64,000 bases of DNA. Source: a virus (Duplodnaviria; Caudoviricetes). A program made the position numbers and the translations under genes. Positions 19,161-29,418 of this stretch are shown one piece after another. How positions within the stretch are numbered: position 1 is the first letter of the stretch; each line of letters opens with the position of its first letter. The notes beneath the pieces were generated by a model that did no database searches, was not told the origin of the DNA, and saw nothing but the letters and a program-made list of their open reading frames with translations. The stretch is taken from IMG/VR virus record IMGVR_UViG_3300014208_000023, positions 1 through 64,000 of that record; one strand, written 5' to 3'.

Positions 19161-19189
19161 GTGAAGGCACAAGCTTTGTTTTAAAGTAG

Positions 19190-19260
19190 AGCCCATAGAA
19201 GGAGTCGAACCCTCAAGACCTAGGTACAAACTAGGGATTTTACCGTTAAATTACATGGGC
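19190..19260 (-). tRNA. trnT: tRNA-Thr(UGU)
   Basis: GCCCATG..TATGGGC, AC arm CCTAG TT-TGT-AC CTAGG, T loop TTCGACT. Confidence 0.9.
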
Positions 19261-27485: not shown

Positions 27486-27674
27486 TTAAGCAGTAAGCTT
27501 TTTAGAATTAAGAAATCTTCCAGGCCCACATACCTGCGCACAATCGCTTTGTGACTTCTCATCTTCTCCCTGACAGAAGCCGATGCATTTCCATCCGGTG
27601 ATAATGTTTAGAGAGATGCGCAGCGAATCGCTCATCTTTTCTTTAGAAGCACATATGAGTTGTTTGGCATCCAT
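27486..27674 (-). CDS. hypothetical protein
   Basis: ORF in run. Confidence 0.5.
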   Translation of the reverse strand: MDAKQLICASKEKMSDSLRISLNIITGWKCIGFCQGEDEKSQSDCAQVCGPGRFLNSKKLTA

Positions 27675-27675
27675 A

Positions 27676-28200
27676 CTACTTCTTGAGTGATTTGATTTTG
27701 ACGATCAAACCAAGAAAGAATAGTTGAGCAAACATCCAGAGATGAATGATGAATTTGTACGGTGGAGTAATGATGTTTGCATTGACCCAATCTGCAAGCC
27801 TAACAATTGGTCGGGCACGTACGGCTCCCAAACAATTTGCCCAGATGCGATTCGTTTCGATATTCACTTCTCGAAGACGCTGAATCTCAAGGTGCAACGG
27901 AGCGGCGACTCCATCGTTATAGCATGGAAGACACTTATCTCCAAGCCAATCATTGACAAGCTTGCCACATACAGAACACTTACATTTGGGATTGGGCATT
28001 TTCTTTTTCTTACTAACTTGATATTTGGTGAGGGGTGAAAGCTTGGTTGCCCTAACTTTCAGTTCTGCGGGAACCCATCCTTTAGATTGGATGGGCAATG
28101 TGATTTTAGATGAGGGCTTAATCCTCACTGACCTACCACCGCTTAGGTAGGTGATGCTTTCAATACGAACCATTGTATAGTTCCTTTGTGGTGATCCCAA
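27676..28200 (-). CDS. hypothetical membrane protein (start uncertain)
   Basis: CSVCG..CLPC and C-terminal TM; 5' end overlaps tRNA-Glu 3' end. Confidence 0.5.
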   Translation of the reverse strand: MGSPQRNYTMVRIESITYLSGGRSVRIKPSSKITLPIQSKGWVPAELKVRATKLSPLTKYQVSKKKKMPNPKCKCSVCGKLVNDWLGDKCLPCYNDGVAAPLHLEIQRLREVNIETNRIWANCLGAVRARPIVRLADWVNANIITPPYKFIIHLWMFAQLFFLGLIVKIKSLKK

Positions 28201-28264
28201 CGAGATTTGAACTCGTGTGCTCGGAGTGAAAATCCGATATCCTAAACCGCTAGATGATGGGACC
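28189..28264 (-). tRNA. trnE: tRNA-Glu(UUC), CCA encoded
   Basis: GGTCCCA..TGGGATC-A-CCA, AC arm TCGGA TT-TTC-AC TCCGA, T loop TTCAAAT. Confidence 0.95.
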
Positions 28265-28678
28265 TAAACGTAACCAGTTATTTTCTTTGGCAGTCTTACG
28301 ACGGTGACAGTTAGAGCATCTAACTACACACTTTTCTATCTCCAGATCAATTTTAGTTTTACTCATTCCGTAGCGCAACAGTGTTGATATGCCTGCAACC
28401 TTTTCGCCAGTAACGTGGTCGAAATCTAAAACGACAGGATCCTTTTCGCCGCAATCAACACATCCATCTTTCATTCTGCCAATGACGTAGTACGCAAGTA
28501 GTTTCTTGCGCTCTTTATTTCTAGCAAAATGCTTATCTTTATTTGCTAGATAAAAATCGCGGCTGATTGCTTTTGAGCAATCTCTACAGTTAGGTTGTAA
28601 TCCAGACCTCTTTTTGTTGAAATCAGATACGGGTTTAGATGAGCGACACGAGCTACATACTTTGAAAGACAAAGACAT
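28250..28678 (-). CDS. HNH homing endonuclease
   Basis: CVDCG...LDFDHV...CVVRCSNCHRRKT; N-terminal CSSC..CRDC. Confidence 0.92.
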   Translation of the reverse strand: MSLSFKVCSSCRSSKPVSDFNKKRSGLQPNCRDCSKAISRDFYLANKDKHFARNKERKKLLAYYVIGRMKDGCVDCGEKDPVVLDFDHVTGEKVAGISTLLRYGMSKTKIDLEIEKCVVRCSNCHRRKTAKENNWLRLGPII

Positions 28679-28687
28679 ACTTTGATA

Positions 28688-28966
28688 TCAAAGTATGCAT
28701 ACTTTCCATGAAATTAACTGCGTCCAAGAAAAAATATATGATGACCTCACTAGTACGCGATCATATATTTCCCTTGGGCGACTTGCAATCAACAATTTGA
28801 TGTGGAATCGAACCACAGTGTTAGTGATATTCACCCACCCATTACCAGTAGCCAATTGTTGACTGCCATTATCTAAATAATTGCGCCCTACTATTAGCTC
28901 CAACCAATAGCGGGACGACTTGCAATATAATACATGGAGGCGCATAGATGGATTTGAACCATACAT
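28688..28966 (-). CDS. hypothetical protein
   Basis: ORF; start overlaps a T-arm-like hairpin. Confidence 0.4.
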   Translation of the reverse strand: MYGSNPSMRLHVLYCKSSRYWLELIVGRNYLDNGSQQLATGNGWVNITNTVVRFHIKLLIASRPREIYDRVLVRSSYIFSWTQLISWKVCIL

Positions 28967-28988
28967 TATCCTGCCTGGTATGCTAGTA

Positions 28989-29255
28989 TTATGTTGCCAT
29001 AACTTTACATTTCGACGCTGTTCCTTTAGGAAGTTTAATTCCTATTTGATCTAGGAGATGAGCAGGCTTGCTTCCACAAAAGCCATGCCAGTTTTCTCTA
29101 TTAAGCCTATATATAGCTTTATAGTTAACCAGGCAAACTTCTTTGTTTAAGTTAAACCATTCCCATGTTGATCTAAACCAACCATTAAAGGATGGAATGC
29201 AACCGTCCTTACGTCTGGCAGGACAACATTTGTTTTCAGAAATCATTGTTACCAA
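28989..29255 (-). CDS. hypothetical protein
   Basis: ORF in run. Confidence 0.55.
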   Translation of the reverse strand: MVTMISENKCCPARRKDGCIPSFNGWFRSTWEWFNLNKEVCLVNYKAIYRLNRENWHGFCGSKPAHLLDQIGIKLPKGTASKCKVMAT

Positions 29256-29418
29256 AAACCATTTATCGACTTGAAACGAAGAGTCTCAAGGTAACCAGTA
29301 GGGTTCTTTAAGGTAGGAGGCTCTACGTCTTCCTCTTCCTTATGTTCTAATTCAGATTCAACTTGCTCGTCATCCTCTTCCACTTCTTCGGTGGAGAGAT
29401 TAATTGCAGGAATATTCA

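What the first reader, a model, noticed from the sequence alone, without database searches (positions are those of the whole stretch)
28189..28697. HNH gene fused into tRNA-Glu, with its start codon buried in a perfect palindrome
Seen: the last codons (GPII-stop) are the first 15 nt of tRNA-Glu, so RNase P maturation would remove the stop codon and create a nonstop mRNA, a tmRNA substrate. The ATG lies within the 22-bp palindrome CATACTTTGATATCAAAGTATG (28676-28697). Established: T4 I-TevI uses a hairpin to block early translation. Inference: double containment of a toxic nuclease through hairpin occlusion plus tRNA-processing-coupled tmRNA degradation.
Basis: partly seen in the sequence, partly recalled or inferred. 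Interest (0 to 1): 0.7.

Follow-up and report, generated by a model that had tools for sequence, protein, structure and literature searches.

The report
Homing nuclease gene welded to tRNA-Glu
A selfish DNA-cutting (HNH) gene in a 428-kb groundwater phage runs 15 bases into the phage's only glutamate tRNA gene and hides its start codon in a conserved RNA hairpin; both features are real, but they are family habits already seen and discussed for the tRNA-cluster nucleases of phages T4 and T5.

Summary
Both observations are confirmed at the stated coordinates. The 142-aa HNH ORF (28678..28250, minus strand) ends GPII-TAG inside tRNA-Glu(UUC) positions 1-15. Its ATG is the last triplet of a perfect 22-bp palindrome, the longest in the 428-kb phage genome.

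Neither feature is peculiar to this locus.
- **Overlap:** of 80 non-identical relatives, 40 end inside the next same-strand tRNA and 6 more abut it. The unrelated T5 genes hegC and hegD do the same. The conserved protein core stops only 8-22 nt before tRNA +1, so reading into the tRNA is close to the neutral expectation (39 seen, 34.5 expected of 50).
- **Hairpin:** it recurs in the closest relatives with compensatory changes and variable loops. The family's start regions are more structured than control genes (p = 1e-4).
- **Cassette:** nuclease clades follow tRNA identity. A remnant of a same-anticodon tRNA loop lies at a fixed distance upstream in 21 of 48 loci, including this one.

Best reading: a homing-type HNH cassette docked on tRNA-Glu and kept quiet by an AUG-sequestering leader. 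Loss of the stop codon on RNase P cutting follows from the layout; tmRNA tagging is untested. The 2008 T4 SegB paper already proposed both controls. This scan has reported the same layout on other DNA.

The parts
28250..28678 (-). HNH (beta-beta-alpha-Me) endonuclease ORF, 142 aa, with an N-terminal CxxC...CxxC zinc ribbon and a C-terminal HNH core
   Evidence: ORF; phrog_2255 E 4.7e-34; invariant C73 C76 D87 H88 C121 N123 C124 H125; 252 homologues
28189..28264 (-). tRNA-Glu(UUC) with encoded CCA; the only tRNA-Glu in the 428-kb genome
   Evidence: ARAGORN; Rfam RF00005 57.8 bits
28250..28264 (-). 15-nt overlap: the last four sense codons (GPII) and the TAG stop are tRNA positions 1-15. RNase P cutting between 28265 and 28264 would leave the ORF without a stop codon
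   Evidence: Sequence; same layout in 40 of 80 relatives and in T5 hegC and hegD
28675..28698 (-). Leader hairpin (helix 1): 10-bp stem, 4-nt loop, -10.6 kcal/mol, with the AUG start codon in the 3' arm; contains the perfect 22-bp palindrome 28676-28697
   Evidence: conserved in L065, L003, L079, L066, L063, L009, L149, L150
28654..28665 (-). Codons 5-8 (FKVC), complementary to the 5' arm of the hairpin. This is alternative helix 2 (12 bp), which leaves the AUG in the 5-nt loop of a nested mini-hairpin
   Evidence: helix 1 versus helix 2 probabilities shift with the 5' context; the same element is present in L003, L065, L066, L079
28698..28707 (-). Upstream copy of GGAAAGTATG, directly abutting the hairpin; it forms a second, overlapping 16-bp palindrome with the 5' arm
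28709..28746 (-). Putative decayed 5' half of an older tRNA-Glu gene: GGTC at its start and TTTCA (U33-anticodon-A37) at 28713-28709, 35 nt before the ATG. Support at this locus alone is weak
   Evidence: Not significant locally. The same 5-mer of the downstream tRNA lies 30-60 nt upstream in 21 of 48 family loci against about 1.5 expected, and at -33 to -37 in the hairpin clade. Clear 5'-half remnants are seen in L063, L009, L106, L089, L138

Best explanation
This is a free-standing, homing-type HNH endonuclease cassette docked directly 5' of the phage's only tRNA-Glu(UUC) gene. It belongs to a widespread phage family whose sub-lineages each sit against one tRNA identity, often with the remnant of a truncated same-anticodon tRNA just upstream. 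SHOWN: the nuclease family assignment; the 15-nt overlap; the conserved tight packing (protein core ends 8-22 nt before tRNA +1); the conserved leader hairpin that pairs the AUG. INFERRED: (1) The ORF reads into the tRNA as a by-product of this packing and borrows the tRNA's conserved TAG. This is not a selected switch. (2) The leader hairpin keeps translation of the nuclease low on read-through transcripts, in the way shown for T4 I-TevI and proposed for SegB. In this window it competes with a second helix that uses codons 5-8. (3) If, as seems likely, ORF and tRNA share one transcript, RNase P maturation of tRNA-Glu removes the last four codons and the stop. Only unprocessed precursor can then give full-length protein, and cut mRNA is decayed or yields stalled ribosomes that need rescue. 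This further limits expression as a side effect.
For: - Nuclease identity.
- Overlap.
- Family survey of 80 non-identical members: 40 overlap the next tRNA, 6 abut it, and the stops fall on tRNA positions 8-10 (17 cases) or 13-15 (9 cases).
- Unrelated T5 hegC, hegD, T5.069 and T5.057 overlap tRNAs by 14, 23, 24 and 6 nt in AY543070.
- Neutral model: 39 observed against 34.5 expected of 50.
- Tree: the window groups with L063, L064, L065 and L151, all tied to tRNA-Glu. Separate Gln and Arg(tcg) clades exist, with at least 20 partner changes.
- Same-anticodon loop remnant upstream in 21 of 48 loci within -60..-30, against about 1.5 expected.
- Hairpin: longest palindrome in the genome, -10.6 kcal/mol. 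It is conserved in relatives 47-59% identical in protein, with G-C to C-G (L063) and U-A to C-G (L009) changes and stem extensions past the AUG (L066, L150).
- Start regions: family z -1.08 against -0.17 in controls, Mann-Whitney p 1e-4.
- No sigma-70-like promoter inside the ORF that could drive the tRNA separately.
- Published precedent for both controls in T4 segB.
Against: - No RNA data exist for this uncultured phage, so co-transcription, the RNase P cut and the effect of the hairpin are unobserved.
- The phage's promoters are unknown, so an internal promoter for the tRNA cannot be excluded.
- No syntenic relative with or without the cassette was found, so mobility at this locus is not shown.
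- The upstream tRNA-Glu remnant is not significant in the window taken alone.
- In some 5' contexts the predicted ensemble prefers helix 2, in which the AUG is unpaired, though it sits inside a small loop.
- Family loci are phylogenetically related, so the counts overstate the number of independent events.
Confidence: 0.6

Rival explanations
1. One reading: the stop codon is kept inside the tRNA by selection, so that RNase P processing converts the message to a non-stop mRNA and tmRNA (host or the phage's own) tags the toxic nuclease for degradation. Together with the hairpin this would form a deliberate double lock.
For: The layout makes the stop codon separable from the ORF. The layout is frequent in the family. 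The phage carries a tmRNA 5 kb away with a canonical-looking tag ending AYAQAA. Processing-made non-stop mRNA under tmRNA control is an established mechanism for arfA (abstract of PMC10107115).
Against: Overlap frequency is about what unconstrained tails give at this packing (39 against 34.5). The junction drifts within the tRNA-Glu clade (-15, -25, +9) and changes frame within the Arg clade. Members with a stop codon 0-13 nt before the tRNA would lose 3' protection just the same. There are no tagging data.
Confidence: 0.2
2. The palindrome acts at the DNA level as an operator for a dimeric protein. One candidate is the nuclease itself, as in I-TevI autorepression. In this reading it does not act as an RNA hairpin.
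For: It is a perfect 22-bp palindrome with two further copies of its half-site within 50 bp. The core 16-mer is identical in three loci whose proteins are only 47-51% identical.
Against: Half-site spacing varies across relatives (loops of 4, 6, 8 and 10 nt). The stem shifts register while still covering the AUG (L066, L150), and pair changes are compensatory. The most conserved part is the CAU complement of the start codon. The 16-mer is at chance frequency elsewhere in IMG/VR: 29 contigs, of which only one, the contig of relative L003, carries the nuclease.
Confidence: 0.12
3. The hairpin plus the following U-rich tract (CUUUGUCUUU) is an intrinsic terminator or attenuator that insulates the nuclease and tRNA from upstream transcription.
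For: The consensus scan flags it as terminator-like (10 pairs, 4-nt loop, T-rich tail).
Against: Only 3 G-C pairs. The U tract is coding sequence and is absent after the homologous hairpins of L065, L066, L079 and L003. Termination there would also silence the phage's only tRNA-Glu unless another promoter exists, and none was found.
Confidence: 0.06
4. Chance or annotation artefact: the ORF is not a real gene, or the palindrome and the overlap are coincidences.
For: Any frame that enters a tRNA soon meets a stop. About 0.1 palindrome of this length is expected per genome by chance.
Against: There is a strong family match with intact catalytic residues and a normal length. The hairpin is conserved in relatives. 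The juxtaposition to a tRNA recurs in the family.
Confidence: 0.02

Closest known systems
Phage T4 SegB (GIY-YIG free-standing homing endonuclease in the T4 tRNA gene cluster; Brok-Volchanskaya et al. 2008, PMC2330249)
   Same: A nuclease gene embedded among tRNA genes, on the same strand and directly upstream of a tRNA. The authors predicted a hairpin holding the SD and start codon with no promoter nearby, and proposed that maturation of the downstream tRNA cuts between the last codon and the stop codon. SegB targets tRNA genes.
   Different: A different nuclease superfamily (GIY-YIG, not HNH). In SegB the cut falls just before the stop codon, whereas here four sense codons are lost as well. 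SegB recognises the T-arm motif, while the upstream remnants in this family point to the anticodon-loop region. SegB activity and homing are shown by experiment; nothing here is.
Phage T5 tRNA-cluster HNH endonucleases hegC (F-TflI) and hegD (F-TflII), record AY543070
   Same: HNH genes inside a tRNA array whose annotated CDS overlap the 5' end of the next same-strand tRNA by 14 and 23 nt. The SegB paper mentions lowering of expression by primary-transcript processing for them.
   Different: No detectable sequence relationship to the window protein beyond the HNH motif. They are about 190 aa with a different domain order.
T4 I-TevI and other T4 genes with start regions sequestered in hairpins on early transcripts
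   Same: The start codon is paired in a stable leader hairpin of a homing endonuclease gene, which limits translation (stated as shown in PMC2330249).
   Different: In T4 a late or middle promoter inside or beside the hairpin gives open transcripts. No such promoter could be identified here. Here there is also no clear SD, and a second competing helix uses codons 5-8.
arfA mRNA of E. coli (non-stop message made by processing, repressed by trans-translation)
   Same: An endonucleolytic processing step removes the stop codon, so the product becomes a tmRNA substrate (abstract of PMC10107115).
   Different: In arfA the cut is by RNase III and the regulation is demonstrated. Here the cut would be by RNase P at a tRNA, and tagging is only inferred.
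Mitochondrial tRNA punctuation (my own knowledge: Ojala, Montoya and Attardi 1981)
   Same: mRNA 3' ends are defined by excision of the flanking tRNA, which can leave ORFs without a complete stop codon.
   Different: In mitochondria polyadenylation completes the stop codon. No such repair is known in bacteria or phages.

Membership tests
HNH (beta-beta-alpha-Me) endonucleases | Profile match to HNH families | tested here: met
   phrog_2255 E 4.7e-34 plus several other HNH PHROGs. Pfam PF01844 is below threshold for the window protein but matches 6 of 20 close homologues.
HNH (beta-beta-alpha-Me) endonucleases | Catalytic D-H ... N ... H motif framed by two CxxC zinc ligand pairs | tested here: met
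   C73, C76, D87, H88, C121, N123, C124 and H125 are invariant across 20 homologues and present in the window protein.
HNH (beta-beta-alpha-Me) endonucleases | DNA cleavage activity | not testable with these tools
   Needs purified protein.
Free-standing homing endonuclease cassettes (SegB-like) | Sits beside or within its likely target gene | tested here: met
   46 of 58 relatives that have a downstream tRNA overlap or abut it. Nuclease clades follow tRNA identity.
Free-standing homing endonuclease cassettes (SegB-like) | Presence/absence polymorphism at the same locus in related genomes | tested here: inconclusive
   No relatives of the flanking genes were found in five large phage records or in IMG/VR. 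The family is found in many different genomic contexts.
Free-standing homing endonuclease cassettes (SegB-like) | Footprint of insertion into the target | tested here: met
   Met for the family: the U33-anticodon-N37 5-mer of the downstream tRNA lies 30-60 nt upstream in 21 of 48 loci against about 1.5 expected, and longer 5'-half remnants occur in several loci. In the window only TTTCA at -35 is seen, and the longer remnant is not significant.
Start-region hairpin occlusion (T4 I-TevI / SegB type) | Start codon lies in the stem of a stable hairpin | tested here: met
   10-bp stem, -10.6 kcal/mol, AUG in the 3' arm.
Start-region hairpin occlusion (T4 I-TevI / SegB type) | Structure conserved with covariation in relatives | tested here: met
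   Nine loci carry an AUG-covering hairpin, with two double-sided pair changes, register shifts and loops of 4-10 nt. Family against control z-scores give p 1e-4. The set of sequences is small and related.
Start-region hairpin occlusion (T4 I-TevI / SegB type) | A second promoter inside or next to the hairpin that gives translatable transcripts | tested here: inconclusive
   No sigma-70-like site. TGATAT in the loop sits where sister clades have TATAAT, 6 nt before the ATG, but the spacing to any -35-like box varies from 14 to 19 nt (and reading of the sequences). The phage's own promoters are unknown.
Start-region hairpin occlusion (T4 I-TevI / SegB type) | Measured effect on translation | not testable with these tools
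   Needs reporter fusions or toeprinting.
Processing-made non-stop mRNA under tmRNA control (arfA type) | Processing site upstream of the stop codon | tested here: met
   Met by sequence only: tRNA +1 is 12 nt upstream of the TAG. The cleavage itself has not been observed.
Processing-made non-stop mRNA under tmRNA control (arfA type) | The arrangement is kept by selection | tested here: not met
   39 overlaps observed against 34.5 expected from unconstrained tails. The junction position drifts within clades.
Processing-made non-stop mRNA under tmRNA control (arfA type) | Product tagged or repressed by trans-translation | not testable with these tools
   No RNA or protein data.
LOOT RNA leader (Rfam RF03000), suggested by an earlier scan note for other nuclease leaders | Covariance-model match | tested here: not met
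   No match even at E up to 5 in 27400-29400.

The most novel reading that the evidence does not exclude
The locus is one copy of a largely undescribed class of 'tRNA-replacing' homing cassettes. The nuclease cuts a resident tRNA gene near its anticodon loop. The cassette then installs itself together with its own, presumably cut-resistant, tRNA of the same anticodon, and leaves the old 5' half to decay upstream. The leader is a two-state RNA whose fold, and therefore nuclease translation, depends on where the transcript starts or is processed.
Probability: 0.3. Interest if true: 0.6.

Novelty: new member of a known kind. Interest (0 to 1): 0.33.

Why it matters
The locus itself is ordinary: one more selfish nuclease parked in front of a phage tRNA gene, with the two brakes that were proposed for T4 SegB in 2008. 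The family-level picture has some value.
- It shows that 'stop codon inside the tRNA' needs no adaptive story.
- It gives comparative support, including compensatory changes, for start-codon sequestration as a recurrent way of keeping homing nucleases quiet.
- It indicates that these nucleases co-diversify with particular tRNA identities and leave same-anticodon remnants. This bears on how phage tRNA repertoires are shuffled and on annotation: CDS/tRNA overlaps of this kind are real and should not be trimmed.

Tried and rejected
- **Pfam and PDB sequence searches of the window protein:** nothing useful. Pfam gave only a sub-threshold DUF6510 match. The PDB gave nothing for the single sequence, and Hpy99I at E 0.097 with the family profile.
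- **Nucleotide search of 26-31 kb against deposited phages:** only the tRNA matched.
- **AAAGTATG as a genome-wide promoter motif:** rejected. 25 minus-strand copies against about 16 expected, with no other clustering.
- **The 16-mer core of the palindrome across IMG/VR:** 29 contigs, about the chance level. Only the contig of relative L003 has the nuclease. L058 carries a 34-bp palindrome around the same 22-mer but no nuclease.
- **Syntenic relatives via both flanking genes:** none found.
- **Remnant of tRNA-Glu upstream in the window by local alignment:** not significant.
- **The two upstream tRNA-like elements:** not called as tRNA or tmRNA at normal thresholds and not matched by any Rfam family.
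- **Full-text literature searches:** no paper was found that describes this protein family or a survey of nuclease ORFs ending inside tRNAs. That is not proof that none exists.
- **Not run:** structure prediction and complex prediction, because no claim here depends on them.
Full report
**Setting.** The window is the first 64 kb of a 428,320-bp virus record with direct terminal repeats. Public runs that hold the stretch are groundwater metagenomes. Nearly all genes in the window are on the minus strand. The window carries five tRNAs and a tmRNA at 23012-23399.

**Checking the observation.**
- The ORF runs 28678..28250 on the minus strand and encodes 142 aa.
- ARAGORN and Rfam place tRNA-Glu(UUC) at 28264..28189 on the same strand, at 57.8 bits.
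- Reading, the ORF ends GGT CCC ATC ATC TAG. These 15 nt are tRNA positions 1-15, so the stop codon is tRNA 13-15.
- The protein matches PHROG 2255 (HNH endonuclease) at E 4.7e-34.
- Pfam misses the window protein but hits PF01844 in 6 of 20 close homologues. The two CxxC pairs, the D-H, the N and the second H are invariant in the alignment.
- The length and the N-terminus (MSLSFKVC...) fit the family, so both ends of the ORF are credible.
- The 22-bp palindrome at 28676-28697 is perfect and ends in the ATG. It is the longest perfect palindrome in the genome, against about 0.1 expected per simulated genome.
- As RNA it forms a 10-bp hairpin of -10.6 kcal/mol.

**The overlap is a family habit.** I collected relatives from IMG/VR, JGI and ENA metagenomes and Logan assemblies. 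For each I extended the frame to its stop and called tRNAs. The 80 non-identical members split as follows:

| Position of the stop relative to the next same-strand tRNA | Members |
|---|---|
| Inside the tRNA | 40 |
| 0-5 nt before it | 6 |
| 6-40 nt before it | 5 |
| More than 40 nt before it | 7 |
| No downstream tRNA called | 20 |
| Contig ends | 2 |

- The borrowed stop is most often TAG at tRNA positions 8-10 (17 cases) or TAA/TAG at 13-15 (9 cases). Both use conserved tRNA nucleotides.
- Among the 46 members that overlap or abut a tRNA, the partners are Arg(tcg) 23, Glu(ttc) 5, Val and Pro 3 each, Gln(ttg), Met and Trp 2 each, and six other kinds once each.
In AY543070, hegD overlaps tRNA-Gln2 by 23 nt, hegC overlaps tRNA-Ser2 by 14 nt, T5.069 overlaps tRNA-Asn by 24 nt and T5.057 overlaps tRNA-Met by 6 nt.
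- The T5 nucleases are not detectably related to the window protein. The layout has therefore arisen in separate nuclease lineages.

**Is the overlap selected?**
- In the family the last conserved residue (the W of KTAKxxNW) lies only 8-22 nt before tRNA +1 in most loci, and 9 nt in the window.
- With tails this short, an unconstrained tail would run into the tRNA without an in-frame stop in 34.5 of 50 loci. The observed number is 39.
- Within the tRNA-Glu clade the junction is at -15 (window), -25 (L064) and +9 (L065). Within the Arg(tcg) clade both the -10 and the -15 frames occur.
- The tRNA-encoded tails are not conserved as protein.

What is non-random is the tight docking of the nuclease gene against the tRNA, not the position of the stop codon.

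**Cassette architecture.**
- A maximum-likelihood tree puts the window with L063, L064, L065 and L151 (SH-aLRT 81-93). All are tied to tRNA-Glu(UUC). Sister rows go with tRNA-Lys, a well-supported clade (98) with tRNA-Gln, and a large group with tRNA-Arg(tcg). At least 20 changes of tRNA partner are needed on the tree.
- Upstream of the nuclease, L063 carries the 5' half of a tRNA-Glu up to the anticodon loop and L009 carries a decayed tRNA-Arg(ACG). L106, L089, L103, L138 and L023 have significant 5'-half remnants of their downstream tRNA.
- I searched for the 5-mer U33-anticodon-N37 of the downstream tRNA. It recurs within 130 nt upstream in 24 of 48 loci, against about 6 expected, and within -60..-30 of the ATG in 21, against about 1.5 expected.
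- The hits cluster at -44 to -50 in clades that have a sigma-70-like promoter before the ATG, and at -33 to -37 in the hairpin clade.
- The window has TTTCA at -35 (28713-28709), with a GGTC 33 nt further up at the right distance for an acceptor start. Taken alone this remnant is not significant.
- This fits a cassette that entered a tRNA gene near the anticodon loop and carries, or regenerated, a full tRNA of the same anticodon downstream. Two first-reader notes of this scan proposed that reading for other genomes. I tested it here on this family.
- The window's tRNA-Glu is the phage's only one.

**The leader hairpin.** The nearest relatives share it although their proteins are only 47-59% identical to the window's. 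The table shows the arms in capitals and the loop in lower case.

| Locus | Hairpin at the start codon | Note |
|---|---|---|
| L065 | ATACTTTGatatCAAAGTATG | Same register as the window |
| L079 | CATACTTTgatataAAAGTATG | 6-nt loop |
| L003 | ACTTTGatatCAAAGT, then T, then ATG | ATG lies 1 nt after the stem |
| L066 | GGCATACTTtgaaatatAAGTATGCC | Stem extended past the AUG |
| L149 | CATACT...AGTATG | 10-nt loop |
| L150 | GCTCATA...TATGAGC | Different flanks, same anti-AUG CAU |
| L063 | CATACTTTCatatGAAAG-G-TATG | Inner G-C pair flipped to C-G |
| L009 | ACATACTTCttagGAGGTATGT, then ATG | U-A changed to C-G; SD lies in the stem |

- The element common to all is the CAU that pairs with the AUG. 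Loops vary from 4 to 10 nt.
- Across 78 members, the -45..+30 region is more structured than in 150 control ORFs of the same loci. Mean z is -1.08 against -0.17. The share with z below -2 is 27% against 7%. Mann-Whitney p is 1e-4. The AUG is also more often paired (p 0.009).
- Other clades instead carry TTGACA-17-TATAAT ending about 6 nt before the ATG.

This supports an RNA-level function, start-codon sequestration, over the two alternatives:
- **Fixed-spacing DNA operator.** The variable loop lengths argue against it.
- **Terminator.** The U-rich tail that makes the window's hairpin look terminator-like is coding sequence and is absent in the relatives.

**A second fold.** In the window the 5' arm can also pair with codons 5-8 (12 bp). 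This leaves the AUG in the 5-nt loop of a nested mini-hairpin. Which fold dominates depends on how much 5' sequence is present: helix 1 has probability 0.88, 0.50 or 0.01 in three contexts. I could not identify what relieves the block, if anything does.

**Processing and tmRNA.**
- RNase P cuts at tRNA +1 (established biochemistry). If ORF and tRNA share a transcript, the upstream product ends ...CGU UUA and lacks GPII and the stop.
- No sigma-70-like promoter lies inside the ORF, but the phage's own promoters are unknown.
- The phage tmRNA contains an in-frame ...GNDNQNAYAQAA stop.
- Processing-made non-stop mRNA under tmRNA control is established for arfA (abstract of PMC10107115).
- Nothing here shows that it happens at this locus, and no RNA run is available.

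**Comparison with the literature.**
- That nucleases live in phage and bacterial tRNA arrays is known (PMC6409571, PMC8421152).
- For T4 segB, Brok-Volchanskaya et al. 2008 (PMC2330249) wrote that a stable hairpin holds the SD and start codon, with no promoter nearby. They also wrote that processing during maturation of the downstream tRNA-Arg cuts between the last codon and the stop codon.
- They say lowering of expression by primary-transcript processing was likewise proposed for the T5 tRNA-cluster nucleases.
Only the explicit tmRNA step is added.
- I found no paper on this particular HNH family or on the same-anticodon remnant pattern.

**Verdict.** The locus is a new member of a known kind. 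The hairpin brake is likely (about 0.6). Loss of the stop codon on processing is a plausible physical consequence but probably not a selected device (about 0.2 as an adaptation). This scan has already reported nuclease ORFs ending inside tRNAs on other DNA.

Noticed in passing
window 28776-28866 and 28913-28997 (minus strand): Two paralogous tRNA-like elements lie just upstream of the nuclease. Each has a T-arm-like hairpin closed by a 12-13-bp stem and is followed by the shared tail ATTGCAAGTCG(C/T)CC, which occurs nowhere else in the genome. ARAGORN does not call them at normal thresholds and Rfam has no match. T5 annotates 'tRNA-like stable RNAs' in its own tRNA cluster.
   Followed up: partly
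window 23415-23978 (minus strand) and tmRNA 23012-23399: A second nuclease gene (phrog_3322 endonuclease, E 1.4e-21, endonuclease VII-like) ends 15 nt before the 5' end of the phage tmRNA on the same strand. This is the same docking as at tRNA-Glu, but without overlap.
   Followed up: partly
window 19280-19921 (plus strand) and tRNA-Thr 19189-19260 (minus strand): A third HNH gene (phrog_10822, E 5.7e-18) starts 20 bp from the 5' end of tRNA-Thr and is divergently oriented.
   Followed up: partly
genome 67400-67651 (L002, outside the window): A truncated paralogue of the window nuclease (48% identity, residues 55-138 only, 93-aa open frame) with no tRNA nearby. It is probably a decaying copy.
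   Followed up: no
window 23012-23399: The phage tmRNA is found by Rfam (80.7 bits) but not by ARAGORN, even at a lowered threshold. It holds an in-frame tag-like ...GNDNQNAYAQAA followed by a stop.
   Followed up: partly
L063:2430-2500: The closest homologue (59% identity) sits directly behind the 5' half of a tRNA-Glu(UUC) that is truncated just after the anticodon loop. No intact tRNA follows the nuclease there, so that copy appears to have destroyed a tRNA gene without replacing it.
   Followed up: partly
L151:520-700: Another clade member lies 2 nt after the CCA of the second of two tandem tRNA-Glu(UUC) genes. Their acceptor and D arms are identical to those of the window's tRNA-Glu. Here the nuclease is downstream of the tRNA, not upstream.
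   Followed up: no
L058:1760-1800: A 34-bp perfect palindrome that contains the window's 22-mer lies after a terminator-like hairpin in an unrelated 215-kb viral contig. No nuclease gene is next to it.
   Followed up: partly
L006, L010, L014, L022 (leaders of family members): Several clades replace the hairpin by a near-consensus TTGACA-17-TATAAT box that ends 6-7 nt before the ATG. This would give leaderless or nearly leaderless nuclease-tRNA transcripts.
   Followed up: no
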